DNA of 61,849 nt, the filler included, from Diploschistes diacapsis (taxonomy: Eukaryota), in assembly GCA_023645945.1 (NCBI GenBank). It is 15 parts of 15 records of this genome, joined end to end, with 100 filler letters (N's around TTAATTAATTAA, not from the genome) between each part and the next. Parts side by side here need not be neighbours in the genome. Positions count along the whole stretch, not along the records: positions 51,522 to 54,031 come from JALAIB010002178.1; 14 more parts are not named here. One strand, 5' to 3'. A model generated the notes under the pieces. That model saw only the letters and a program-made list of their open reading frames with translations, had not been told where the DNA came from and searched no databases. The position numbers and the translations under genes were made by a program. Numbering within the stretch: position 1 is the stretch's first letter; every line of letters starts with the position of its first letter. Below, piece by piece: positions 1 to 60,102 of the stretch.

Positions 1-1965
1 ATACAAAAGAGATCGATTAAGAACGTTTTCGTGGTTTATCTACTACGAAAGCCAAATAGGATTCTCTATAAACAAAATACTAGGCGATTATTGAACCTAA
101 ACGTCGCTAATTGAACCTTAAGTTCGTTAATTATAAACTTAAGAAAAACACGATTATTTAAAAAGCATAAATATATTTAATAAAACTTTTAAAGAAGCTA
201 TCGTATAAACGAAAAAAATACGCACTAAAGGTTCTCTTTTAATAATTACTTACAACATTGCCGCCTAATTATAGAATTATTATCGACGTTATTAATATCT
301 AGATCGATAGTATCTTATCCGTTAATATCGATTTTAATAGATGGCTTAATAGGCTCATCGATAAACAAGATAAGTTAATAAAAGAAATTATAATATATTT
401 CTTACGTTATAATAGATTACAGTATCTTAGGGGTTCCCGTTCCTAGAAACGATCCGACGAAAGACGACGCCGCTATTTTAATCTAATAAGAGGATGTCTA
501 TTTTACGGAGATAATAACCATCGCGCAATATAATACAAACTCGCTAAAGAATTCAGATAAATGGTCATTATAATAAAAAACAAGAAACGGGAGAAAAAAA
601 AAGAATCCCGAAACATCCGCGACAAAAAAGGTAAGAACAAACGCGCCTATAATACAGAATATTCAGACGATAAAAGTTTAAAAAATTTAAAATCTGAACC
701 TAAACCTAAACCTTAACTATAGAATAATAAAATTAATAACATAATTAAGGACGTTATCACTAAAAATAAAACTATTTTTATTAAATGGATCGGTGATACC
801 GGCGCTTTATCACATATGACTAACCAGTTACATCTACTTAAAAACCTGACTCCTATTCGAAGACGACGAATCAAAATCGAAAAAGGAATATTCTATTCAG
901 ATTATACTAAGAAGATTAAATTAAAGCAAAACAATAGCGTTCTACATTTGGGATATATGATGTATATATCTAGACTAAAAGCAAACCTTATATCGAGGCA
1001 AAAGTTATACAAAACAGAATTACGAGGGAGTTTTAATCAAAAGAATTTATATTTACACGACGAGGACGATCGGATCATTCTTATATATAAAAAAAAGAAT
1101 AGAGTTTATTACTCGAATAAAATTATAAAAAAAGAACATACGTATAAAACAACTACGTACCCAATAACTAAACCTGAACCTAAATTAAATTCAAAAGTTC
1201 AATCTAATAAAAACAATTATCAACTATAGCACGCACGCATAGCCCATATAAGACCTAAAAAGTTCTAAAACCTGCACGAAGTTACGATTCTCGCTAATTT
1301 TATCCGTATCGCACCCCATACGTGTACGATATATTAATTAACAAAAACTAGGTAATAAATTGACCGTATTTTGGCCAAACACAAGTAAAGCATTCTAAAT
1401 TTGGTAAACATCGACATCTATAAACCCTTCTTAAGATCACTTGACAACAATTAATACCTTATAGAAATTGTCGACAATTACTCGCGAAGAACCTAATCTA
1501 TTCTCTATAAAACTCGGAAAGATATTATTCGTATTTTATAATTCTAAAAAATGAATGCAGAATTTTAAAGCGGTAAGCAACTAAAAGCGATACATTTCGA
1601 TAATACATCTAAATTAATTTTTATAATCGAGAATTAAGGGAGAAGTTTAGGAATTTAGATAGAACCGATAATACTATATACGTTAAATTAAAATGGCACT
1701 GCCGAAAGATCTATATAAATTACCGAAATGAACATCCGTGCTATACTTAAAGGAGCGAAATAAAGATACGCTTTCTAAGACGAAGCAATATTGGCCTGAT
1801 ATTATATCCGAAATAAAACAGTAATAAAATTTAAATTAAACGGTTTAGTCGCGACGTTTATCGAGTATTAATTAAGCGAAAAGCCGTTAATAAATAATAT
1901 CCGTATCTAAAGATTAAGATGTTATAATTATATAAATCTTAAATCGTTACCTAAACGACAAGATA

Positions 1966-2180
1966 TAGAACGCCCCTACAGGAATACTACACAACCAGGG
2001 GCTGAGCCTAATCTGGAAGGATCACGTGTAGCTGCAATCTGTAGGCTGAATGGTTCAGATTCGAAAAGGTGAAAAAGAAACTATCTAGGTGGGAACAGGG
2101 CACATATAAATACTGGGTGCCAGCCCTACCAGCCCTACCAGGGTTCAACCCTTGAACCCACAAACGTTCAGGATGTTCCA
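1966..2180 (-). mobile_element. Solo LTR, family A (215 bp)
   Basis: GC-normal island with ends TAGAAC...GTTCCA, flanked by a 5-bp TSD AGATA (1961-1965, 2181-2185). It is the reverse complement of the LTRs at 39613 and 40693. Confidence 0.9.
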
Positions 2181-5161: not shown

Positions 5162-5261
5162 NNNNNNNNNNNNNNNNNNNNNNNNNNNNNNNNNNNNNNN
5201 NNNNNTTAATTAATTAANNNNNNNNNNNNNNNNNNNNNNNNNNNNNNNNNNNNNNNNNNNN

Positions 5262-28680: not shown

Positions 28681-29669
28681 AGCTAAATTTGGTCTGTATG
28701 CGAGGATGAGTTAATTCCCTGGGGACTCTAATCGCCAGCTGATGTCGTCCGTGTCGAGTACCAGCGAAGATTTTATGGAATCTCGACATCGAGGAAACAC
28801 GATATAGCATCTCAAATAAGTGTTACCTGAGCGGATGCTGTGATGTAGTCCTTACAGATGCGAATTAGACAACATCGCTACTGCACCTCGCGCCTTGAAG
28901 ATTTCCTTGTTACGCCAATAGCCTCGAGTGGCTCACCCAACTGAGTTAAGTGGGATGTTTATTTTCTCCAAAGTCTGATTTGAGATTCTATCTGCTTCCA
29001 AGCCCCTTCCAGTTCGGATCACTTTGTCGATGAGGCGATAGTCAAGTTCAAGTTCTCTTTATCTTATCCATTTAGACGTTATTCTTTGCATTTATTGCAT
29101 TTGAATTGGTTGAATGGTAGTAGTTTTCAAAAGCAGTCACCCTCTCTGAAAACGCCTCACAAAATTCATCGAGGCAGCTTCTCTTTTGACTTATCATAAG
29201 GAGTCATATCTCAAGACGATACTCTAGGCTTCCCTTGCTTATCCGCTCACGTCTTTAGCACATTCGGTTGATTCCCTCACGCTTCCTTGTCATTCTGTTC
29301 CCAAAGCATGGCCCTCCGTAGCTTCATGATCCTTTTCCCTTGCCTCAGGACCCAGACCCGATAGCTGCGCTAGGCTTTGCCGGCTTGAGACTAATCCTCT
29401 TTCGAGTTAGCCTCTCCGCTAGGCTTTATCCGGGTTAGCGGATACTGACTTGATCGTTAGCTGCTATATGGTCTAGGGGCGGAATGTTATAAAAGAAACA
29501 ATTTAATCTTTATTTACGAAATTTAAATCATTTTGCACTATTTTACGCTATCTAGTCTATTTTAAACGCTACAAACACCTTTTTGCCACCAAATTTTCTA
29601 CGCCAGTAATTTGAACGCTTTTTTGAATTTTTATAACATTTTTCGAGCGTCTTTTTGAAGTATCTGAAG

Positions 29670-29983
29670 TAGGCTGGCCGTCACTGACACTGACACGGCC
29701 GTGTCAGTGACACGGATACTGACAGTATTAGTGTCCGTGTTTTAGATTTTTTAATTGCGGTATCCGTGTTCGTGGATTTACGGAAATATAATATTCGTAT
29801 TAATATTAATATTTTAAAATTTTTAATTATAATATCCGTGTCCGTGTTTTTACTGTAATGTAGTGTCCGTGTTAGTGTCCGTGTTTTAAAATTTTAACTA
29901 TCGTGTCCGTGTCAGTGTCCGTGTTTTGAAAATTTTTGCTGCAGTGTCCGTGTTAGTGACCGTGGCACGAAACGGCCAGCCTA
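29670..29983. mobile_element. Short hAT-like MITE (TIR TAGGCTGGCCGT) with GTGTCC subterminal repeats
   Basis: Inverted ends TAGGCTGGCCGT / ACGGCCAGCCTA; same family as 38406-38610 and 48985-49589. No TSD is visible. Confidence 0.75.
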
Positions 29984-30423: not shown

Positions 30424-30523
30424 NNNNNNNNNNNNNNNNNNNNNNNNNNNNNNNNNNNNNNNNNNNNTTAATTAATTAANNNNNNNNNNNNNNNNNNNNN
30501 NNNNNNNNNNNNNNNNNNNNNNN

Positions 30524-38405: not shown

Positions 38406-38610
38406 TTTTTACGGATATTATATTATAATAAAAGTACGGACACGGATATTACGATTAAAAATTTTAAAACACGGATACTTCTACGGATATTATATTGCAA
38501 TAAAAGCACGGACACGGACACTACGGCTAAATATTTTAAAACACGGATACTGCCACGGCCGTGTCCGTGGCACGGATACGGCCGTGTCAGTATCCGTGAC
38601 GGCCAGCCTA
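38406..38610. mobile_element. Right arm of the hAT-like MITE family
   Basis: ACACGG/ACGGATA repeats ending ...GACGGCCAGCCTA; cut by the contig start. Confidence 0.8.
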
Positions 38611-39612
38611 TTTTGTAGTTCTTGTCGATGTAGTCGTATATGAAGCTATGGTTTTGATGTTGAGTGTCGTGTAAAATATGTTCGTAGTATTATTCGAACG
38701 TTGCGTTTGTGATTAGTTTATTGTATAAGACATACTTCCCGTCTTAATATATTGAATATTCGCAGCGGAAATCCTTACATTTATTTAGGTATTTAAGGTT
38801 TAAGTAATTCAGATTATTGATAATAGTTTTCTTATTCTATCATTATTATATAAGTAAGTTCTATAATTCTTGTCGGTGCAATCGTATATAAAGCTATAGT
38901 TTTAATATTAGATGTCGTGTAAAACATATTTATAATATCGTTTAAACGTTACGTTTATGATTAGTTTGCCGTATAGAACATATTTCTTATTTTAATGTGT
39001 TAAGTATTCGCAGCGGAAATCTTTATATTCGTTTAAATATTCGTAGTTTGGGTGATTTCGATTATTAGTAACGAGAGCTTTTTTTCGAAAGTATTCCTTT
39101 TTAGTACTAACACGGTTATTAATACGAAATTCGTACGATGCGTTTTCGTTTAGATTGTTGTTTAAAGGTTTTTAGGTATTTAATTTAGTTTTAAGGATCG
39201 GATAATATATTTATATTTCCGTAAATAACCGTTTTATCGTTTCTTTATATTTCGTTGTATCTTCCGGAATATTGTTGTTCTTCGAAATTTCGTTTATTGA
39301 TATCAAGATTAATAAAGGCGTGGTTTCGATATCTTTATCAATAGAATCGTCGGTGTCGTTTTGCTAGGCTGTGGTGTCCGATTTAATTATAACTTCTTTT
39401 TAAGATTGTCCGTCGGTCGGACAGTCCTTTGTAGGGATAATTGTAGTTACGTTGAAATGGTGATCTGTCGCGGTTAGGATATCTTTTTTAGCGATTTTGT
39501 TCTTAGATCTATAATCTCGAGCGAAGTGGTTTATCTTGTTATATTTAAAGCATTTCTTTTCTTTAATTAAAGATTCCCCGTTGAGTATTTTAGCCCCTTT
39601 CTTCTGATTTGG
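38611..39612 (-). mobile_element. RIP-degenerate retrotransposon gag region with an internal ~248-bp tandem duplication
   Basis: About 39560-39510 reads KCFKYNKINHFARDY (CX2CX4HX4C after reverting G>A). CGCAGCGGAAATC occurs at 38761 and 39009 within two colinear blocks. Confidence 0.7.
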
Positions 39613-40909
39613 TGGAACATCCTGAACGTTTATGGGTTCAGGAGTTGAACCCTGGTAGGGCTGGTAGGGCTGGCACCCAGACTATTTATATGTGCCCTGC
39701 TCCCACCTAGATAGTTCCTTCTTCACCTTTTCGAATCTGAACCATTCAGCCTACAGATTGCAGCTACACGTGATCCTTCTAGATTAAGCACAGCCCCTGG
39801 TTATGTAATATTCCTGTAGGGGCGTTCTACATTCGAAAAAATCTTTCAAAACTACCTATTCGGCTTAGGATCTGAAGTATTCAGTTTACGTCATTTACCT
39901 ACCTACCTACCTATTTACGAAAAGAATCTAGACCTAATCTTATTTAATGCTACCTACGCGAGCTGGCGCGTTTTTGAAGATGAAGGTCTACGACACCTAG
40001 GAGCGACGAAAAACCTCTTACGACACCCACCAGAAGCGACGAAAACCTCTTACGACAAATAATAGATCGATAAATCAGAATTTTCGATCTAATTAGTATT
40101 CAGTTATAATTATAATTAAAATACTAAATCTAATCTTATCTATCGCGATAAAACATTATTTAAGCGAATAACCTGATAATAATAGATCTACGTACGACAT
40201 CTATTTAAAACGACGAAAAGCTTCTACGAAAAATTTACGATAAATAGATCGACGAATTAGAAACCACGATTTAATTAATTAGAATAAAAGAGCTTAAGGT
40301 CTTATATAAATTGAATATATTTTTTGAACCTTTCGAACCTTTATTTTATCGATAAACAAACCTTTATTCACTATTTTTCGAAAGCGGTTTCTGCTGCCAT
40401 GTTTACTGCTGCTATTACTGCTTTTCGTTCTGGGAATCGCCTGTTTTCAGTACTATTAGTCTAACAGCACCCATTTACGACGCCGAAACTTAAGAGGAGT
40501 AAAATCGGGCACGTGTCTACGTGTAATACGGGTTAAAAAGAATAAAAAGAAAAGGAACTGAACTAAGCCGAAAAGAATATTAAAGTATGAGAGGACTAAA
40601 AGTAGATATCCGAATTAAGAAAGAAAGAATAAGGGTTTTGTTTTGTTTTGTTTTGTTATTAGGGGACAGCAACAGTTTGGAAAGGGAGATAGTAGAACAT
40701 CCTGAACGTTTATAGGTTTAGGAGTTGAACCTTAGTAGGGCTGGTAGGGCTAGCATCTAGACTATTTATATATGCCTTGCTCCCATCTAAATAGTTCCTT
40801 CTTCACCTTTTCGAATCTGAACCATTCAGCCTACAGATTGCAGCTACACGTGATCCTTCCAGATTAGGCACAGCCCCTGGTTGTGTAGTATTCCTGTAGG
40901 GGCGTTCTA
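39613..40909 (+). mobile_element. Non-autonomous miniature LTR element (TRIM-like), family A, 1297 bp
   Basis: 217-bp direct LTRs at 39613-39829 and 40693-40909; TSD TTTGG on both sides; PPT GGAAAGGGAGATAG before the 3' LTR; 863-bp interior without an ORF. Confidence 0.92.
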
Positions 40910-41292
40910 TTTGGGCGGGGTTTGTTAGTTANNNNNNNNNNNNNNNNNNNNNNNNNNNNNNNNNNNNNNNNNNNNTTAATTAATTAANNNNNNNNNNNNN
41001 NNNNNNNNNNNNNNNNNNNNNNNNNNNNNNNAGTTATAAGTTAAAAACACGTAAAAGAGAAGGAGGTGGGCGGATGACTTGTGTGGGCGGGCATATGACT
41101 TATGAAATATGTTACTTATCAAGGGTTCTTATATAAATCGTCATCGTCGATGTTTTAATGTTCCATTCTCAACGTATGAGTACCACATACTTCATTAAGG
41201 CACATAGAATCTATCTTGCCGTTGAGAAGTGCGTTATCCGTAGCTATAATACAGATAACATAACTTTTGATCAACGCCAGGCTTCCAGCAGT

Positions 41293-42301: not shown

Positions 42302-42646
42302 CTTCATCTAGAGATTTGTTTGAGAAGAGGAGATATGCAGCGAGGAAAGAAAATTTGGTCAAGCTTGATGGGTTCTGATACAAACTTGGTATTACCTCCA
42401 TAAGTAGTCCCCACAGGGACCAAGGGAGCCAATTATTATCTAGGATGGGATGCTTATTACTTAGCTAATCAAATAATGACATGGCATTATATTTTAACTA
42501 CTTTTAAAAGGATCTTTTTTATATACAGCATCTCTGAGGCCCAACCCTTATTTTATTAAAGTTCCCTACCAGACCTGTACTCAATAACCAGGTATTTGAA
42601 TATGAAAGCCAATAACGTGTTTCTCGGTCAGCTCGGCCACCCCCAA

Positions 42647-42819
42647 TGTAACAGCGGGGGTAGTGCCTAATAGGTAGCAACTATCCCACTGAGCCAAAAG
42701 ACTGAACACAATGCTTTCAGAAACCCCGAAAGCACTGTTTCCCTATTACACTATATGTAGGTGCGTGGCTGTGGCAGCAGGGGGACGTGAACCCCGGTGC
42801 GCACACTACGGGCGTTACA
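42647..42819 (-). mobile_element. Solo LTR, family B (173 bp)
   Basis: TGTAAC...GTTACA with TSD CCCAA (42642-46, 42820-24). Confidence 0.93.
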
Positions 42820-43220
42820 CCCAAAGCTCGGCCACTTCAAATTACTACCGCTAACATTCTACGGTTTTTAAAAACAACCTATTCGTCGCAATTAGAATTT
42901 AATCGATCTAAATCGAATTTATTTTCTTCCTTTTCATCCTTCTCGATTTTAAAAACGCGATAACGTTTTTTACGCGTTATAAATCATTTTGAAATTATCC
43001 GATTCAATTTAACCCGAATTATTATTTTAAAAACTTCGTTTATATTAATGATAAATATAACCGAAAAGATTCGACGCGAACGTATTCGATTCAATTGGAA
43101 TTTAAAAATTACGATCGCGAATCTTTAATTTATCGATAAATATTAAGTATCGCGATTTTACAAATGATTTGTTAAAATTACTAATCTTTAGACGAAATAA
43201 ATCGAGTCGAATAAATTTAA

Positions 43221-43392
43221 TGTAACAGCGGGGGTAATGCCTAATAGGTAGCAACTATCCCACTGAGCCAAAAGACTGAACACAATGCTTTCAGGAACCC
43301 CGAAGCACTATTTCCCTATTACACTATATGTAGGTGCGTGGCTGTGGCAGCAGGGGGATCTGAACCCCGGTGCGCACACTTCGGGCGTTACA
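43221..43392 (-). mobile_element. Solo LTR, family B (172 bp)
   Basis: TGTAAC...GTTACA with TSD TTTAA (43216-20, 43393-97). Confidence 0.93.
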
Positions 43393-43443
43393 TTTAATAC
43401 GATAAGTTACGAAGCTATATAACGGTGATTCGATATAGTAATA

Positions 43444-47000: not shown

Positions 47001-48984
47001 CCGTGATATATACGGAACCTCCTCCATCGTCTGAACGGTCCAGTTGGAATGGACCCAGCTTCCATCTCTCGGATTTATCACCAATGTAAGCAATAATCGA
47101 TGACGGTATCCTGCACGAGACTGGGTACTCCTTGCTTCCCCCTGAGAGAGAGGTGCCAGTACCAACGGCGGCCGTGAGAATCTGGGAACAACACCGGCTG
47201 GAGATTTGAAGGGAGGATCTGGAAGCATAGGGGCAAGATATTGGTACCTACATAGCTGTTGCGCACAAGGGAGACTTTGACGGAGGGGCCTCCGTGCATA
47301 CCTCGCCTCTCTCGCAGCCGACTAGCCGACAGCAAGAGCTGGATGGACGGTGCGAAGGTTATCCAAGCTCCATGTATTTGCGCTCTTGTACTATACAGTC
47401 TCGTAAGCGGCAACTCGCGACTTTGCTCGCGCGATGCCACCTTTTACCCGTTAGGCACCATGCAAGCGCCGAGGCATATCGTAGGCATGTAGAGCCCCCG
47501 TGGAACAAGCATTCCGTTTATGAAGGCAGGCAAGGACGATAGCGGGATCGTGTAATGCCTGCTCTTAGATGGGCTCCGACGACTTGCGCGCTCGCAGCAA
47601 ATACAACTTCTCCTGTCGAGAATGAGATGCCTGCTCCAGGTAGCTGCCATAACAATATGCCGCAAGATCAACAATGTTCACAAGGTTACGTCCGAGAAAG
47701 CTGTTTGAAAGATCGATACCTGCGAGATGGCCGGCACCTGGACAGGGTTGGACGTGTCAAAAAAGGTGGAGAGAAATTGGGACGGCATAATGTTGCAAAG
47801 AGCGAAAGCGAAGACAGAGCCCCGCCGAGAAAGATAATATAGAAGTTAGCCCGTGGCCAAAAAAAACGAGGGGCAGACGGTCCAGAGCGTCCAGCTTTCG
47901 AAAGCACTGCATTGGGTTGTGGACATCGGTCGTCAGAGATAGAGGACCTGATACCGACCGTGCGTCCTGTTTTGGCATCCCTTGGGATCGTACAGGGTGC
48001 TCGAGCCAAGATCGCCCGGCGGCTCTAGAGCCTGCATCAGGAGGAGGCACAATTGATGCGATCCTTGCTGGAGATCTTGAAGATCTCGGTCTGCAGCCTC
48101 CGGCTCGTACACCAGCAGTGTGGATGCAGAGACGTCGTTGTGTCTTCGCTCCAGATAGCGGCATTGAAGCAGAGACAGAAGCAAAGTTCCGAAGAGCTTC
48201 GAGTGCTGTGTTTTGTGAGTGCCTCCCCGTGGCAAGCACGACGCAGGCGCTTCCTGTCGATCCCGAAGAACAGGGCCCTCATACGCGCATCCGCATATCC
48301 GCGCTGCATGCGCCAAGATCGAGCCGTCCCGAGCAAGCCCTCGTAGTTAGGTAGCTACTTCTTCGCGTCAAGGCAAGGGAACGAGAATCGTACACGCCAG
48401 ACCAATCCACAAACTCCTCGAGCCATATCACCAAGTAAAAACACACCATAACGCATCGCGTCGCATCGAGCGCTGGCATGCATGCACCGCCAGCTCAATC
48501 ACCAACAAAGGCCTTCAACAACAACAACGACGCATGCCAATCGGGCCTGGCCGTCTCGGGCTCTGCGCTGTCTGCCTGCCTGCTTGCCTACTTGCTTGCC
48601 TGCGTCCATTGACTCCCGGTTTATAATTCATGAACCACGAGCCGCAGGCCCACGGCGTCTGACATGCCGTGCCAGATACGACCCATGCCCGAGCAAAGCA
48701 GCGCAGGCACATCAGACCTTCAGCTGCCGTTGAGGTGCCGTTGAGACGCGCTGCATATCCACGGAAGTATTACTATATGTACTTCTCGGGACCTGATGGG
48801 GGGNNNNNNNNNNNNNNNNNNNNNNNNNNNNNNNNNNNNNNNNNNNNTTAATTAATTAANNNNNNNNNNNNNNNNNNNNNNNNNNNNNNNNNNNNNNNNN
48901 NNNATATTCTGGTTAACGTAGTATCGTAAATATTGTTTTAAAATTTAATTTATTTTTTTTATTTGATCATCTGTTTGTGGGTAG

Positions 48985-49589
48985 TAGGCTGGCCGTCACT
49001 GACACTGACACGGCCGTGTCAGAGACCCGGACATTGACAGTGTCAGTGTCCGTGTTTTAGATTTTTTTGCTGCGGTGTCCGTGTCCGTGGATTCACGGAA
49101 ATGCAGTATCCGTGTCAGTATCCGTGTTTTAGATTTTTTAATTGCGGTGTCCGTGTCCGTGGATTTACGGAAATGTAATGTCCGTGTCAGTATCCGTGTT
49201 TTAAAATTTTTAATTACGATGTCCGTGTCCGTGTCCGTGTTTTCAAAAATAATTTCTAAAAAATAAAAGCGTGAGAAATAGGCGTAATAAATCCAGAATT
49301 ATTAAAATTAAAAAAATATGTTGAAGTATTTCGGTAAATGCACGGACACGGATACTATAATAAAAAAATTTTCGGTACGGATATTAATACGGACACTATA
49401 TTATAATAAAAGCACGGACACGGACACTGCAATTAAAAATTTTAAAACATTGATACTGACACGGACACTGCATTTCCGTGAATCCACGGACACGGACACT
49501 GCAGCTAAAAAATCTAAAACACGGACACTGACACTGTCAATGTCCGTGTCACTGACACGGCCGTGTCAGTGTCAGTGACGGCCAGCCTA
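48985..49589. mobile_element. 605-bp foldback hAT-like MITE
   Basis: About 175-bp near-perfect inverted arms starting TAGGCTGGCCGTCACTGACACTGACACGGCCGTGTCAG. The arms are built from CCGTGT repeats around an AT-rich spacer. Confidence 0.88.
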
Positions 49590-51130
49590 ACGCAAAGAAT
49601 CAGACTACTGGGCAAAACATCCCGAAAAGAAAAAGAAAAAAGTTAGGCCGGATTCGGAAAGCACGCTAGTTTCTTTAGAAACTAATACGCCTAATTCGGA
49701 AATTAGTTATACCTCTTTCGATCAAAAACGGACTGGATTCTCGATTCGGCAGCAATCTCGCATATATACTCGGATTTATCGGCTTTAAATCATTCGAGTC
49801 ATGTGATTCAGCCCTACGATGGAGGATAGTAGCATAAATCAACATCTTAGGTGTCGGAACAGTTAAATTCCGAATTAAATTCACCAATAAGATCCTTCGG
49901 CTGACAAATTGAAAATACGCGCCGGATTTAGGGACAAACCTCATCTCTGCTACCGCCATACGCGAAAAAGGCGCGAAAACCATTCTAAATAAGGATTATT
50001 GCCATATTATTTCAATGGGTTACTAGCAAAAGGTGCTTATTTAAATCAATTGATAATCATATCCACTGAACTAGTTAAAAAGGACCCCGCTTTTACTAGT
50101 CAAGAATTAGTCAGCAAGAACCTATAACACAAGCGAATGGGACACATCGGTTCTTCAGCCCTAGAGCAATTGCCTAAACAGGCAATAAAAATTAATTTCG
50201 CCAAATCAACCAACCAAAGCCTTATACAACATACATACAAGCTAAAGCGACAAAAAAGATATCCAGAAAACCCTCTCAGCCCCAAACTACCTATTTAAAA
50301 CTAATGGACTCGGATATTTGCGGTCCAATATCTCCGAAAACACTATTCACCAGAAACGTGACTACTCTTAAAGACACTAAGCCTATTCAGGCTAATACAT
50401 CAGATCCTGAATTATTTACGATAAAAGATTCAGAAGAAGAAAATCGACCTAATTATAACAACCTACCGGAAGATGTTAATAGTAATAATATCAATAACAA
50501 CGATGTCGATAACAATGATGTCAATATTGACACTGACCTAGGAAATTTCAGGCGACCTAGGCAATTCAGGCGACCTAGAAAATTTAGGCGATTTAGGCAA
50601 TCCAGGCGACCTAGATAATTCAGCGACTTAGGAGATTTAAGCGACCTAAGAAATTCAGGCCCCGACCATTTTTCGGCGCTAAACCGCATTTGGCAATACC
50701 TACATCATACCTAGAATTTCGGCATATCATATAATCAGACCTCTTATGGCCTAAAAGGCTACTGCGATTTTGATTAGGGGGGGATTATAAAAGCCGAAAA
50801 TCAATCAGCGGTTATTTATTCCTAATCGGGACTAACGTCATTTCCTAGATATCTACCCTACAAAAGACAGTGGCGCTTAACAGCTATGAGGCTGAATATA
50901 TGGCGCTAAAAGAAGCGACAAAAGAACAGCTGTATCTAACTAATACGCTTAGTCAAATTCCTTACCTAAATAAGGAATTAACTAAGCATATTTTTACAAA
51001 CAGCCAATCAGCGATCGAGCTAACAAAAAACCCGGTACACCACAAGCGAACAAAACATATTAATATTCAATATCATTTTATTCGGACAGCCAATAAAAAC
51101 AAAAATATATATTTAAAATATATATCCACC
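49590..51130 (+). mobile_element. Internally deleted Ty1/copia pol remnant
   Basis: YAPDLGTNLIS, HKRMGHI and DSDICGP, then a jump to RIWQYL, GYCDFD*G, VALNSYEAEYMAL and NPVHHKRTKHINIQYHFIR (RNase H). The integrase core and most of the RT are missing. Confidence 0.88.
50535..50660 (+). repeat. About seven 18-bp tandem units (GACCTAGGCAATTCAGGC)
   Basis: Degenerate units read directly; they sit at the deletion junction of the copia element. Confidence 0.85.
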
Positions 51131-51521: not shown

Positions 51522-54031
51522 CCGTAGGAGTTTTAATTCTATTTATATTAAAAAAGAATAATATTTTACGCTTATACGTCGATTATAAAAGATTAAATAA
51601 ATAACGAGGAAAAACCGTTATTCATTATTTTTAATTAACGAAACGCTAAATCGCTTTATAAACGCAAAATTATTTTCAAAAATAAATCTAAAAAATACGT
51701 ATTATCGCATCCGCATTCGCGAAAACGATAAATAAAAGACTACCTTCCGTACTAAATACGGTCATTTTAAATATCAAATGATACCATTTGGGCTAATAAA
51801 CGTCTTAGCTATATTTTAAACTTATATCAATCGAGTTTTAATAGGTCTAATTAATAATATTTACGTAATTTATTTCGATGATATTTTAATATATTTAAAA
51901 AACGCCGAGGAATACGCGGAGCATCTCCGGCTTATACTCGAAAGATTATGAGATTTCGAGCTATACGCGAATCATAAGAAATACGAGTTCTTTATATAGA
52001 AGTTCGAGTTCTTAAGGTATATTATCTCTATTAAGGGGATTAAAATGAACCCCGTTAAGATATAAAACGTAGCCGATTAACCTACACCCATTACTTTCTG
52101 AGAAGTTCAAATCTTTTTAACCTTTTGTAATTTCTATAAAAGATTTATTTATATATATTCCAGAACAGCAAACCCCCTAACTAACCTATTACAAGATAAC
52201 AAGGACGGGAAGAAATCTAGACCCCTATCGTAGGGCGATCGGCAGCAGGCCGCGTTCGAAAAATTAAAGGTTAACTTTACTCGAGCACCTATATTTATAC
52301 ATTATGACCTAGAAGTTCATATCCGGGTAAAGACCGATACGTCTAATTTTATTATAGTAGCGATTATATCCCAATTAATAACTACGGACGGAATATAATA
52401 TCCCGTCGCTTTCTAATCGAGAAAAATAATTCCCGCCGAAAGAAATTATAAAACCCACGATCAAGAATTATTAATTATTATAAAAGTTTTTAAACATTAA
52501 AAACATTATGTAACGCCCAAAGGTGCGCCCTGGGGTTCAGGTCCCCCTGCTGCCACAGCCACGCACCTACATATAGTGTAATAGGGAAACAGTGCTTCGG
52601 GGTTCCTGAAAGTATTATGATTAGTCTTTTAGCTCAGTGGGATAGCGTTACTTTATTAGGCATTACCCCCGCTGTTATAGTTATGCTTTCATTCTCTAAG
52701 TCGTTAATTCGAGCATAAGGCTTGTTACTTATATAATCGAATTTGTTGCGTTACAATTGAGCGTGCGATCTTACGGGATTAACGTTATATAAAATATACG
52801 ATTAACCTTAAATGCGGCTAAGTAATCCCGTCTCTAAATTCATAACGTAAATATTAGAAACGGTTTAAGATATCTAATATACTCGAGACGTTATATGAGA
52901 CGTGGCAGGTATTGGGGGGTTAGTACTATAAAGAAGGGAGATAATTAGAACGCCCAAAAATGGGCCCTAGGGTTCAGGTCTTCCTACTGCCACAGCCACG
53001 CATCTACATATAATATAATAAAGAAACAGTGCTTCGGGGTTCCTAAAAGCATTATGATTAATCTTTTGGCTCAGTGGGATAGCGCTACCCTATTAGGCAC
53101 TACCCCCGCTGTTACACATTATCTAGAAAACGCTCGGCATGCTATCGAAATCCTTACGGACTATAATAACCTAAAAGGTTTTATAAATCAAAACTCTCTA
53201 ACCGATAAGTAAATAAGATGGACAATACGCCTAACTTCTTTTAATTTTATTATTACGTACCGCCCCGATAAGATAAATCCTACCGACGCACCGTTATAAA
53301 GATTAGATTATTACGAAACGAACCATTAAATTAATAGGTTATTATTGACCCTAAAGCAAAAACTTATTAAATTAAATAAGTTATTCGTTATATCATATCG
53401 AAATATGTCCGATATAATGTCGTAAGCCCTGCGTAAAGACGCCGCGATGTTACGAAAGTTTAGAAAACTCCGCTTTAAATCAAAAAACCCGGAAGGCGAG
53501 AACGACGATAATATATCGTAAGTTTATCGCAGGTTAATAAAAACGCTGTTTAATTAAGAAAGCTTAGATACAGTGTTGTCAGCCTTTGATATACCTGGGT
53601 TAGAACACCGGGAAAACGAGAATAATAATCGAATACCGCAGGTCTATCGTAGGTTAACTGAAACGCTACCTACTTAAAAAGAATTAATAATAAAATATTT
53701 ATTTATCCCGCGAGTATTCGTGAAAGATATTACGAGGCGAAAGTTTACCGATACCTTACTTACGGAGAAACTACTCGACTTAATACGTATCCTATATGTA
53801 ACGGACGGTTTTATTAAAAAGAAAATATTTTTTTTATCGTAACTCATCCGTATTAATATCGTAATTAAAACGATATAATATTATAATAATATAGAATTAT
53901 TATATTATAAAAACCTTATATACGTTCTAAAAAACGACGATATTAAATCAGAACTCTTACGATTAATTTACAATTATAAATTATCAAATTATTATAACGG
54001 GGAACGTATTTACGAACTTATAACCCGAAAT
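51522..54031 (+). mobile_element. RIP-degenerate Ty3/gypsy pol (RT-RNase H), interrupted by a TRIM
   Basis: KTTFRTKYGHFKYQMIPFGL, VIYFDDILIY, KTDTSN and HDQELL. KH*KHYLENARHAIEILTD is restored when 52509-53121 is removed. Confidence 0.92.
52509..53116 (+). mobile_element. TRIM, family B, 608 bp
   Basis: 171-bp direct LTRs at 52509-52679 and 52946-53116; TSD CATTA (52504-08, 53117-21); PPT AAAGAAGGGAGA; 266-bp non-coding interior. Confidence 0.93.
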
Positions 54032-59674: not shown

Positions 59675-59880
59675 CCTTTTTTATTTTATGATTATGTAAT
59701 AAAAATGATTGGCCTCGCCATCTTCGCCCGTTTCGCCAGCTTTCGCCGGTTTCGCCGGTTTCGCCGGTTTCGCCACGTTTCGCCAAACGTTTTGGCGAAA
59801 ACTAGCGAAATGAGCGAAACCCGCAAAACAGGCACTTTCACCGGGGATTTTTTTTTTGCTTAAAAAACTTTTCGTGATGT
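59675..59880. repeat. Dispersed repeat with a TTTCGCCGG tandem array and partially inverted units
   Basis: 9-bp units at about 59722-59785, followed by GGCGAAA units; matches 43444-43556. Confidence 0.75.
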
Positions 59881-59882
59881 AA

Positions 59883-60102
59883 AGGAACATCCTGAACGTT
59901 TATCAATTTAAAGGTTGAACCCCGTAGGGCGGTAGGGCTGGCACCTATGTTATTTATTTATACCCTTCTCCTATTTAGATAGTTTCTTTCTTATCTTTTC
60001 GAATCTGAACCATTCAACCTATAAATGCCCAGCTACACGTAATCCTTCCGGATCAGGCTCAGCCCCCGGTAGTGTAGCACCTATTTCTGTACGGGCGTTC
60101 TA
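59883..60102 (+). mobile_element. Diverged LTR, family A
   Basis: GGAACATCCTGAACGTTT...TTTTCGAATCTGAACC...GGGCGTTCTA; no TSD. Confidence 0.85.

What the first reader, a model, noticed from the sequence alone, without database searches (positions are those of the whole stretch)
52509..53116. 608-bp fungal TRIM with an apparent tRNA-independent (self-priming) primer site
Seen: two 171-bp LTRs, TSD CATTA, a PPT, a 266-bp non-coding interior, and clean insertion into a gypsy RNase H. No tRNA-type TGG... PBS follows the 5' LTR. Instead ATGCTTTCA (52683-52691) is the reverse complement of TGAAAGCAT inside the LTR. That motif is perfect in both solo copies (42711, 43285) and one transition off in each LTR here (52607, 53044), and lies about 35 nt downstream of a TATA-like TACATATA (52568). 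Known: S. pombe Tf1 and related Tf1/sushi chromoviruses prime reverse transcription by folding the mRNA 5' end onto the PBS. Inference: this is a minimal non-autonomous parasite of a self-priming gypsy element. TRIMs are described mainly from plants and animals with tRNA priming, so this could be undescribed.
Basis: partly seen in the sequence, partly recalled or inferred. Interest (0 to 1): 0.78.

Follow-up and report, generated by a model that had tools for sequence, protein, structure and literature searches.

The report
Miniature fungal retrotransposon, probably self-priming
A 608-base non-coding LTR retrotransposon sits inside a mutated gypsy element on a lichen-associated fungal contig, and its primer site matches its own LTR rather than a tRNA, as in the yeast element Tf1; this is a modest extension of known biology, not a new kind of element.

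Summary
Two 171-bp LTRs (52509-52679 and 52946-53116) flank a 266-bp non-coding interior. The element has a CATTA target-site duplication and a polypurine tract, and it splits a gypsy RNase H domain exactly. No TGG-type primer site follows the 5' LTR. Instead, ATGCTTTCA (52683-52691) is the reverse complement of TGAAAGCAT in the LTR, which starts 39 nt after the start of a TATA-like box.

Two new results support self-priming. A second, unrelated small LTR element in the window (39613-40909) has the same geometry with different letters (TTTTCGAAT/ATTCGAAAA) and the identical polypurine core AAGGGAGATA. Each match has an empirical P of about 0.004-0.005, and 12 of 12 control junctions gave only 4-6 nt. 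Contigs of three public runs hold many diverged copies of the interior, so it is not a one-off deletion.

Not shown: the transcription start, the autonomous partner, and a comparison with host tRNAs. No genome is held. The primer motif also lies in a strong hairpin inside the LTR, which is a caveat.

Fungal TRIMs and fungal self-priming gypsy elements are both in print. Only their combination appears undescribed.

The parts
52504..52508 (.). Left copy of the target-site duplication, CATTA
   Evidence: Read directly. Identical 5-mer at 53117-53121.
52509..52679 (+). 5' LTR (LTR-B), 171 nt. Starts TGTAAC and ends GTTATA, which is GTTACA in the other three copies.
   Evidence: Alignment of four copies; direct repeat D2/D10.
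52568..52575 (+). TATA-like TACATATA. Its start is 39 nt before the start of the primer motif.
   Evidence: Read directly. Invariant in all 4 LTR-B copies. Promoter function is inferred.
52591..52616 (+). Hairpin inside the LTR whose 3' arm contains the primer motif. It is weakened here by RIP-type changes and strong in the solo copies (42742-42704 on the minus strand).
   Evidence: Solo copy at 42700-42745: -19.7 kcal/mol, z -5.77, 0 of 200 shuffles as good. Solo copy at 43275-43318: z -3.59. This copy: z -0.94.
52607..52615 (+). Putative self-primer, proposed 5' end of the transcript. It reads TGAAAGTAT here; the family form is TGAAAGCAT.
   Evidence: At 52613, T>C in nearly all laid contigs of three runs (table 3). 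The C>T change here still allows a G-U pair with the primer site in RNA.
52635..52674 (+). Inner U5 stem: CAGTGGG (52635-52641) pairs with CCCGCTG (52668-52674), ending 5 nt before the LTR end.
   Evidence: Present in both MFE and centroid folds. Invariant in the 4 copies, so there is no covariation evidence. The fold z-score is only -1.08.
52680..52945 (+). Non-coding interior, 266 bp
   Evidence: No other copy in the window. Many diverged copies in runs X1 and X2.
52683..52691 (+). Putative primer binding site ATGCTTTCA, 3 nt after the LTR. It is the exact reverse complement of the LTR motif TGAAAGCAT.
52930..52944 (+). Polypurine tract AAAGAAGGGAGATAA. The core AAGGGAGATA lies at 52934-52943.
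   Evidence: The 10-mer occurs exactly twice in the window, both times just before a 3' LTR.
52946..53116 (+). 3' LTR, 171 nt. Starts TAGAAC (mutated from TGTAAC) and ends GTTACA. The primer motif copy at 53044-53052 reads TAAAAGCAT.
   Evidence: At 52948 the other copies carry T (table 3).
53117..53121 (.). Right copy of the target-site duplication, CATTA
51523..52508 (+). Host gypsy element, RIP-degraded: reverse transcriptase and the first two thirds of RNase H
   Evidence: Pfam RVT_1 E 3.6e-20, RT_RNaseH_2 E 4.1e-20, RT_RNaseH profile 2-66 (stops read as X).
53117..53242 (+). Host gypsy element: remainder of RNase H
   Evidence: Pfam RT_RNaseH profile 66-105, E 0.0022. Uninterrupted copies of this site exist in runs X2 and X3 (tables 5c and 7).
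43221..43392 (-). Solo LTR-B with its own target-site duplication TTAAA (43393-43397 and 43216-43220)
42647..42819 (-). Solo LTR-B with its own target-site duplication TTGGG (42820-42824 and 42642-42646)
39613..40909 (+). Element A, a second small non-coding LTR element of 1297 bp.
- LTR-A copies: 39613-39829 and 40693-40909.
- Target-site duplication: TTTGG (39608-39612 and 40910-40914).
- TATA-like: TATTTATA at 39683-39690.
- Primer motif: TTTTCGAAT at 39728-39736.
- Primer site: ATTCGAAAA at 39831-39839.
- Polypurine core: AAGGGAGATA at 40682-40691.
   Evidence: There is no significant similarity to LTR-B or to the TRIM interior.

Best explanation
This is a dead, RIP-mutated copy of a multi-copy TRIM-type non-autonomous LTR retrotransposon of a lichen-associated ascomycete. 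It is nested in a degraded gypsy element.

It most likely replicated by self-priming of the Tf1 kind, in these steps:
1. Transcription starts at or near TGAAAGCAT in the 5' LTR, about 35-40 nt past a TATA-like box.
2. The RNA 5' end folds back over about 75 nt of R-U5 and pairs with ATGCTTTCA, 3 nt past the LTR.
3. The RNase H of a helper element cuts off this short duplexed 5' piece.
4. The piece primes minus-strand DNA synthesis.
5. The polypurine tract primes the plus strand.

Gag, protease, reverse transcriptase and integrase would come in trans from an unseen gypsy element. That same helper probably also serves the unrelated element A at 39613-40909, because both share the polypurine core.

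Shown here: the anatomy, the clean insertion, the complementarity in two families, the shared polypurine tract, and the multi-copy interior.

Inferred: the transcription start, the cleavage, the helper, and past activity.
For: 1. LTR-element anatomy.
- The LTR ends are TG..CA-type (TGTAAC...GTTACA).
- 5-bp target-site duplications flank all three LTR-B insertions (CATTA, TTAAA, TTGGG). They also flank two of three LTR-A insertions (TTTGG, TATCT); the third, at 59880, shows none.
- The insertion splits Pfam RT_RNaseH at profile position 66.

2. No tRNA-type primer site.
- No TGG occurs in the 20 nt after either 5' LTR.
- There is no ARAGORN tRNA in the window and no Rfam hit. This holds even at E<=10 on the 851-nt stretch that carries the two solo LTRs.

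3. Complementarity of the primer site to the LTR.
- There is a 9-nt exact reverse complement between positions +4..+12 after the TRIM 5' LTR and LTR-B positions 100-108.
- The empirical null is 0.38% of 60,000 trials (30,000 windows of 15 nt from contigs without this LTR, each read on both strands).

4. Independent replicate in element A.
- Positions +2..+10 (ATTCGAAAA) match LTR-A positions 116-124 (TTTTCGAAT). The motif is conserved in 4 of 4 LTR-A copies; the null is 0.49%.
- LTR-A versus LTR-B, and the two interiors, align no better than shuffles.
- The pairing is therefore kept while the letters differ.

5. Controls. 12 of 12 other junctions gave only 4-6 nt. These were outer flanks, polypurine sides and solo-LTR flanks.

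6. Geometry. From the start of the TATA-like box to the start of the motif is 39-40 nt in LTR-B and 45 nt in LTR-A.

7. Folding. The MFE of the shorter construct of each element, and the MFE of the longer construct of element A, pair the 5' motif with the primer site. The centroids of all four constructs do so at least in part. An inner U5 stem ends 5-9 nt before the LTR end in both elements.

8. Shared polypurine tract. AAGGGAGATA occurs exactly twice in 61.8 kb, both times 1-2 nt before a 3' LTR. My own estimate of the chance expectation is about 0.1 exact matches.

9. The family form of the motif carries C at 52613 in nearly all contigs of three runs. By summed depth: X1 27097 of 27993, X2 63058 of 66063, X3 375 of 375.

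10. The interior is multi-copy.
- At 52886, 33 contigs in X1 and 44 in X2 carry a base other than the window's.
- One 288-nt X1 contig is colinear with 52654-52910 with 47 mismatches and no gaps.
- One contig joins 52910, then 36 unaligned letters, then the LTR start; the window has 35 nt there.

11. Uninterrupted gypsy copies at this site occur in X2 and X3.

12. [quoted passage not shown]
Against: - No transcript data. No listed run is RNA, so the start site is a guess.
- The pairing is 9 bp with no extension on either side, shorter than Tf1's 11.
- Fold z-scores are weak (-1.08 and -1.84). With a longer 3' tail, the TRIM's MFE no longer pairs the 5' end with the primer site, although its centroid still does in part.
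- TGAAAGCAT is also the 3' arm of a strong hairpin inside LTR-B, whose 5' arm (GTGCTT(T)CG) resembles the primer site. The motif may be conserved for the hairpin, and if transcription starts upstream the hairpin would compete with the primer site.
- Element A's motif contains the palindrome TTCGAA.
- The host tRNA set was not available, so priming by an internal tRNA fragment is not excluded.
- No autonomous element with LTR-B, this primer site or this polypurine tract is in the window.
- No single contig shows a second complete LTR-interior-LTR unit.
- The depths are sums over contigs and are not copy numbers.
Confidence: 0.6

Rival explanations
1. It is a real TRIM family, but it is primed by something other than its own 5' end, such as an internal tRNA fragment (as in copia or Ty5) or an unknown primer. 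The match to the LTR would then be a by-product of the LTR hairpin, with the primer site resembling the hairpin's 5' arm, or chance.
For: - A strong hairpin contains the motif (z -5.77 and -3.59).
- The pairing is only 9 bp and the fold z-scores are weak.
- The host tRNAs were not available for comparison.
- Half-tRNA priming exists in other LTR elements (PMC6317226, passage).
Against: - The same arrangement recurs in unrelated element A, which has no such hairpin (z +0.31).
- Taken as independent, the two nulls of 0.38% and 0.49% give a joint chance of about 2e-5.
- 12 of 12 control junctions show nothing.
- A hairpin does not explain why the complement sits exactly at the primer-site position.
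Confidence: 0.25
2. It is a one-off or rare internal deletion of an autonomous LTR element, not a propagating miniature family. On this view the interior pieces seen in other data are the leader and tail of full-length elements.
For: - There is only one LTR-interior-LTR unit of this family in the window.
- No single laid contig spans both LTRs of another copy.
- X2 depth across the interior is uneven (953, 13636 and 5879 in three bins).
- Several joints skip 79-168 nt inside the interior.
Against: - A diverged X1 contig (47 mismatches) is colinear over 231 of the 266 interior bases without a gap.
- Another contig continues from 52910 through 36 letters into the LTR start; the window has 35 nt there.
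- X1 depth is flat over the interior (1339, 1632, 1388).
- Among the loose ends shown, the only one inside the interior (52903, 7 contigs) sits at the diverged polypurine end, not at a possible deletion junction. A further 1424 loose ends were not shown.
Confidence: 0.1
3. It is not an LTR retroelement: for example two copies of a tRNA-derived SINE or a MITE that happen to flank 266 bp.
For: The LTR holds tRNA-like words, GGCTCAGTGGGATAG and GGGGTTCAGATCCCC (read by eye).
Against: - ARAGORN finds no tRNA, and Rfam gives no tRNA-like hit even at E<=10.
- The outer flanks share one 5-bp duplication, while the inner junctions carry a polypurine tract and a primer-site-like sequence.
- The repeat ends are TG..CA-type, and each solo copy has its own 5-bp duplication.
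Confidence: 0.03

Closest known systems
Tf1 of Schizosaccharomyces pombe and the self-priming Tf1/sushi group (Tf2, Tj1, Maggy, Skippy, Cft-1, Boty, Grasshopper, Afut1, Tcn1)
   Same: - No tRNA-type primer site.
- A short sequence just after the 5' LTR is complementary to a sequence inside the LTR downstream of a TATA-like box.
- A polypurine tract sits before the 3' LTR.
- The hosts are fungi.
(Mechanism: PMC7175516. List of elements: PMC6934838. Tj1: PMC4600332.)
   Different: - These are 5-6 kb autonomous elements that encode Gag and Pol. The element here is 608 bp and codes for nothing.
- The pairing is 9 bp here against 11 in Tf1.
- The transcription start and the cleavage are shown for Tf1 and only inferred here.
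Plant and animal TRIMs (Witte et al. 2001 type; PbTRIM in ants; biv-TRIM in bivalves)
   Same: - Total size under 1 kb.
- Terminal direct repeats of 100-250 bp.
- A short non-coding interior ending in a polypurine tract.
- 5-bp target-site duplication.
- Nested insertion in other elements.
(Definition as quoted in PMC6934838.)
   Different: - Classical TRIMs carry a primer site complementary to a tRNA. This one does not.
- The bivalve TRIM also lacks a conventional site, but its authors proposed no mechanism (PMC6934838, passage).
Annotated fungal TRIMs, e.g. RLX_TRIM_Sinope of Parastagonospora nodorum, and TRIM classes in Zymoseptoria tritici and rust fungi
   Same: They are small non-autonomous LTR elements in ascomycete genomes that carry RIP. 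They are multi-copy and short enough to partly escape RIP (PMC8549362, passages; the rust papers were seen only in the search listing).
   Different: Those are pipeline classifications. The passages I read say nothing about how they are primed.
LARDs and other non-autonomous LTR derivatives
   Same: Element A (1297 bp, 863-bp non-coding interior) is intermediate between a TRIM and a LARD. It depends on a helper in the same way.
   Different: From memory, not from any call: LARDs are usually several kb long with a conserved non-coding interior.

Membership tests
[quoted passage not shown] | Total length under about 1 kb with terminal direct repeats of 100-250 bp | tested here: met
   608 bp in total; repeats of 171 bp each
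[quoted passage not shown] | Short interior without coding capacity, ending in a polypurine tract | tested here: met
   266-bp interior. The only ATG ORFs of 30 aa or more (33 and 52 aa) start in the LTRs. The purine run at 52930-52944 lies 1 nt before the 3' LTR.
[quoted passage not shown] | Interior starts with a primer site complementary to a tRNA | tested here: inconclusive
   No TGG in the first 20 nt. No tRNA gene in the window and no host genome to compare with. A 3'-end tRNA site looks absent; an internal tRNA fragment cannot be excluded.
[quoted passage not shown] | Flanked by a target-site duplication (5 bp) | tested here: met
   CATTA on both sides
[quoted passage not shown] | A family of several complete copies at different sites | tested here: inconclusive
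   Many diverged contigs cover the interior in X1 and X2, and they are colinear in pieces. No second complete unit with its own duplication was seen.
Self-priming (Tf1-type) LTR retroelements | [quoted passage not shown] | tested here: met
   9 of 9 nt, P about 0.004. Replicated in element A with P about 0.005. 12 of 12 controls negative.
Self-priming (Tf1-type) LTR retroelements | The complementary LTR sequence is the exact 5' end of the element's mRNA | not testable with these tools
   No run on record as RNA holds the stretch. Only the distance from the TATA-like box is suggestive.
Self-priming (Tf1-type) LTR retroelements | RNase H cleavage of the 5' duplex releases the primer | not testable with these tools
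   This needs biochemistry or cDNA intermediates.
Self-priming (Tf1-type) LTR retroelements | Pol of the Tf1/sushi chromovirus clade (here: in the helper element) | not tested
   No element sharing LTR-B, the primer site or the polypurine tract is in the window. The host gypsy fragment is not shown to be the helper.

The most novel reading that the evidence does not exclude
Two unrelated non-autonomous LTR families (a 608-bp TRIM and a 1.3-kb element) in one lichen-associated fungus are both self-priming parasites of a single unseen Tf1/sushi-type chromovirus. They would be recognised through a shared polypurine tract and a shared fold-back geometry rather than shared sequence. In the TRIM, an LTR hairpin that sequesters the primer motif would act as a switch between hairpin and primer-site pairing. 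This would be the first explicit case of self-priming TRIMs.
Probability: 0.4. Interest if true: 0.5.

Novelty: new variant of a known kind. Interest (0 to 1): 0.4.

Why it matters
Self-priming has been shown or proposed only for autonomous elements. A miniature element that keeps nothing but LTRs, a 9-nt self-primer/primer-site pair, a U5 stem and a polypurine tract would define the minimal cis requirements for this replication mode.

It would also show that TRIM-finding pipelines which demand a tRNA-type primer site can miss fungal TRIMs. In addition, the family appears abundant in lichen and rock-associated fungal data, so it may be a useful marker for these poorly assembled genomes.

It does not change how LTR elements are understood.

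Tried and rejected
- Whole genome of the window: none is held. Counting all copies, a host tRNA scan and a search for the autonomous partner were therefore impossible.
- Exact-pattern scans with two conserved LTR-B patterns:
  - Metagenome contigs: 0 hits with each of the two patterns.
  - Genome contigs: 0 hits with the first pattern. The second gave 1 hit, a 24-nt match in a 60% GC bacterial MAG contig. It has no further similarity and is about what chance predicts, so I rejected it.
  - Viral contigs: 0 hits with the one pattern tried, the 21-nt one.
- RNA evidence: no RNA holder listed.
- Run X4: nothing was laid on the stretch.
- tRNA-like reading of the LTR (A-box-like and T-arm-like words seen by eye): not supported by ARAGORN or by Rfam at E<=10.
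I did not repeat it.
- Similarity between the TRIM and element A (LTRs and interiors): none above shuffles.
- Original Tf1 papers (PMC1369541, PMC109269, PMC230564, PMC6388632): not held. The Tf1 details come from a review passage.
Full report
**Context.** The window is not one stretch of chromosome. It is a chain of contigs joined by N44-TTAATTAATTAA-N44 spacers. The finding lies on a 2510-bp contig (51522-54031). No whole genome is held. The stretch is held best by a run labelled lichen metagenome (X1, 0.68 of sampled words). It is held in part by a run of 'organism A' (X2, 0.15) and by a rock metagenome (X3, 0.06), from three studies. Composition and the excess of transitions fit a RIP-affected ascomycete.

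**Checking the observation.** All coordinates hold.
- LTRs are at 52509-52679 and 52946-53116, 171 nt each. They differ at 23 of 171 positions, 21 of them transitions.
- The target-site duplication CATTA is at 52504-52508 and 53117-53121.
- The interior is 52680-52945 (266 bp). Only a 33-aa and a 52-aa ATG ORF overlap the element, and both start in an LTR.
- The purine run AAAGAAGGGAGATAA at 52930-52944 ends 1 nt before the 3' LTR.
- With stops read as X, the left flank matches Pfam RVT_1 (E 3.6e-20), RT_RNaseH_2 (E 4.1e-20) and RT_RNaseH profile positions 2-66. The right flank resumes at positions 66-105, a weak match on its own (E 0.0022, below Pfam's cut-off). The insertion is therefore clean.
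- Uninterrupted versions of this gypsy site exist elsewhere. In X2 a contig goes from 52499 through 14 letters to 53127. In X3, 11 contigs run on from 52513 into sequence like that after the element (tables 5c and 7).
- The two other LTR-B copies are true solo LTRs with their own duplications, TTAAA and TTGGG.

**The primer site.**
- No TGG occurs in the 20 nt after the 5' LTR.
- ATGCTTTCA (52683-52691) is the exact reverse complement of TGAAAGCAT at LTR positions 100-108 of both solo copies.
- The element's own LTRs each carry one RIP-type transition in the motif. The change in the 5' LTR (C>T) would still give a G-U pair in RNA.
- In three runs nearly all laid contigs carry C at 52613, so TGAAAGCAT is the family form.
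- I sampled 30,000 windows of 15 nt from contigs without this LTR and read each on both strands. A match of 9 nt or more occurred in 0.38% of the 60,000 trials.

**An independent replicate.** I call it element A (39613-40909).
- Its LTR-A copies are 217 nt (39613-39829 and 40693-40909) and differ at 16 of 217 positions, all transitions.
- Its target-site duplication is TTTGG, and its 863-bp interior has no long ORF.
- Two further LTR-A copies lie at about 2180-1965 (minus strand, duplication TATCT) and 59880-60100.
- One nucleotide after its 5' LTR comes ATTCGAAAA. This is the reverse complement of TTTTCGAAT at LTR-A positions 116-124, which is present in 4 of 4 LTR-A copies. The null is 0.49%.
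- LTR-A and LTR-B, and the two interiors, align no better than shuffled sequence. The pairing is therefore preserved while the letters differ, which amounts to covariation at the level of families.
- At 12 control junctions the longest complement was 4-6 nt. These were outer flanks, polypurine sides and solo-LTR flanks.
- The motif starts 39-40 nt (LTR-B) and 45 nt (LTR-A) after the start of a TATA-like box.
- The two elements share the polypurine core AAGGGAGATA. It occurs exactly twice in the window, both times 1-2 nt before a 3' LTR. This points to a common or closely related helper.

**Folding.**
- RNAs starting at the motif and ending just past the primer site pair the two in the MFE and centroid structures of both elements. 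An inner U5 stem ends 5-9 nt before the LTR end.
- The z-scores are weak (-1.08 and -1.84). With a longer 3' tail the TRIM's MFE changes partner, although the centroid keeps part of the pairing.
- In LTR-B the motif is also the 3' arm of a strong hairpin. The solo copies give -19.7 kcal/mol with z -5.77, and z -3.59. The hairpin's 5' arm resembles the primer site.
- If transcription starts in the hairpin loop, only the 3' arm is in the leader and it is free to pair with the primer site. If transcription starts upstream, the hairpin competes with that pairing.
- LTR-A has no such hairpin (z +0.31). This is the main internal caveat.

**Is the interior a one-off?** No.
- In X1 the three interior bins have summed depths of 1339, 1632 and 1388. 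The contig that matches this locus almost exactly (3 mismatches) has depth 19.5.
- At 52886, 33 X1 contigs and 44 X2 contigs carry a base other than the window's.
- One 288-nt X1 contig is colinear with 52654-52910 with 47 mismatches and no gaps.
- Another contig runs from 52910 through 36 unaligned letters into the LTR start, where the window has 35 nt.
- Eight X1 contigs show a purine-rich tail before the LTR start (all).
- Depths are sums over contigs and not copy numbers, and no single contig shows a second complete unit. Some joints skip 79-168 nt of the interior, so length variants probably exist.
- LTR bins reach far higher sums (up to 95,704 in X1), as expected if solo LTRs or related LTRs are numerous.

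**Mechanism.** The best reading is a TRIM-type non-autonomous element that copies itself by Tf1-type self-priming, using a helper's proteins. The steps are a start at the motif, fold-back onto the primer site, RNase H cleavage, minus-strand priming, and plus-strand priming from the polypurine tract. [quoted passage not shown] Anatomy, complementarity, its replicate and the multi-copy interior are shown here. The start site, the cleavage and the helper are inferred. I put this at 0.6.

**Rivals.**
- The same element with another primer: 0.25.
- A rare deletion derivative: 0.1.
- Not an LTR element: 0.03.

**Comparison with what is known.**
- It is proposed for Tj1 (PMC4600332, passages) and Tcn1 (PMC7175516).
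- It is predicted for 12% of plant LTR elements (PMC6317226, passage).
- TRIMs are defined as under 1 kb with 100-250 bp repeats, a tRNA-type primer site and a polypurine tract (PMC6934838).
- Fungal TRIMs are annotated in bulk, with 1229 TRIM insertions and 793 copies of RLX_TRIM_Sinope in P. nodorum, and are noted in Z. tritici (PMC8549362, passages). Papers on rust fungi appeared only in the search listing.

**Is the combination in print?** I ran three full-text searches.
- 'self-priming' + 'non-autonomous' + 'LTR retrotransposon' + 'TRIM': 3 papers.
- 'self-primed' + 'terminal repeat retrotransposon' + 'miniature': 2 papers.
- 'LARD' + 'TRIM' + 'self-priming' + 'fungal': 0 papers.

I read passages of two of these papers, and neither describes a self-priming TRIM. 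They were the bivalve paper, which mentions the idea without proposing a mechanism, and the Tf1 integrase paper. The other two I judged only from the title and the start of the abstract in the listing. Subscription journals are not covered, including Santana et al. 2013 on fungal terminal-repeat retrotransposons.

**Verdict.** The novelty is modest: it combines two known things, and a specialist would find it plausible rather than surprising.

Noticed in passing
window 39613-40909: Second small non-coding LTR element (element A, 1297 bp, 217-nt LTRs, duplication TTTGG). It has its own self-complementary primer site and the same polypurine core as the TRIM. Further LTR-A copies lie at about 1965-2180 (minus strand, duplication TATCT) and 59880-60100 (no clear duplication).
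   Followed up: yes
window 42704-42742 (minus), 43275-43318 (minus), 52591-52616: Strong hairpin inside LTR-B whose 3' arm is the putative self-primer and whose 5' arm resembles the primer site. z is -5.77 and -3.59 in the solo copies; the hairpin is degraded in the TRIM's own LTR.
   Followed up: partly
whole window; spacers at 2532-2631, 5162-5261, 30424-30523 and 11 more: The window is a concatenation of 15 contigs joined by N44-TTAATTAATTAA-N44 spacers. Fourteen contigs are about 2.5 kb and one is 25 kb. Distances across spacers are meaningless, and the tandem '2.6-kb repeat' reported by the repeat finder is only the spacer.
   Followed up: yes
window 48970-49604, 29668-29964, 38410-38556: A repeat family built of 72-bp tandem units rich in GTGTCCGTG. 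At 48970-49233 and 49341-49604 it forms a 264-nt inverted repeat (85% complementary). It may be a foldback-type element or a satellite.
   Followed up: no
window 42620-42835 (minus strand): The target of solo LTR-B at 42647-42819 already held a short direct repeat: GTGGCCGAGCT stands on both sides of the insertion, outside the TTGGG duplication.
   Followed up: no
window 52530-52613 and 53034-53117 (table 2): Summed contig depth peaks very sharply over the part of LTR-B around the hairpin and primer motif. It reaches 95,704 in X1 and 294,400 in X2, 10-50 times the rest of the LTR. This core may be shared by further LTR families.
   Followed up: no
L001:1258-1281: A 24-nt exact match to the LTR-B hairpin region in a 60% GC bacterial MAG contig. 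There is no further similarity, and the count is about what chance gives in a collection of that size.
   Followed up: yes
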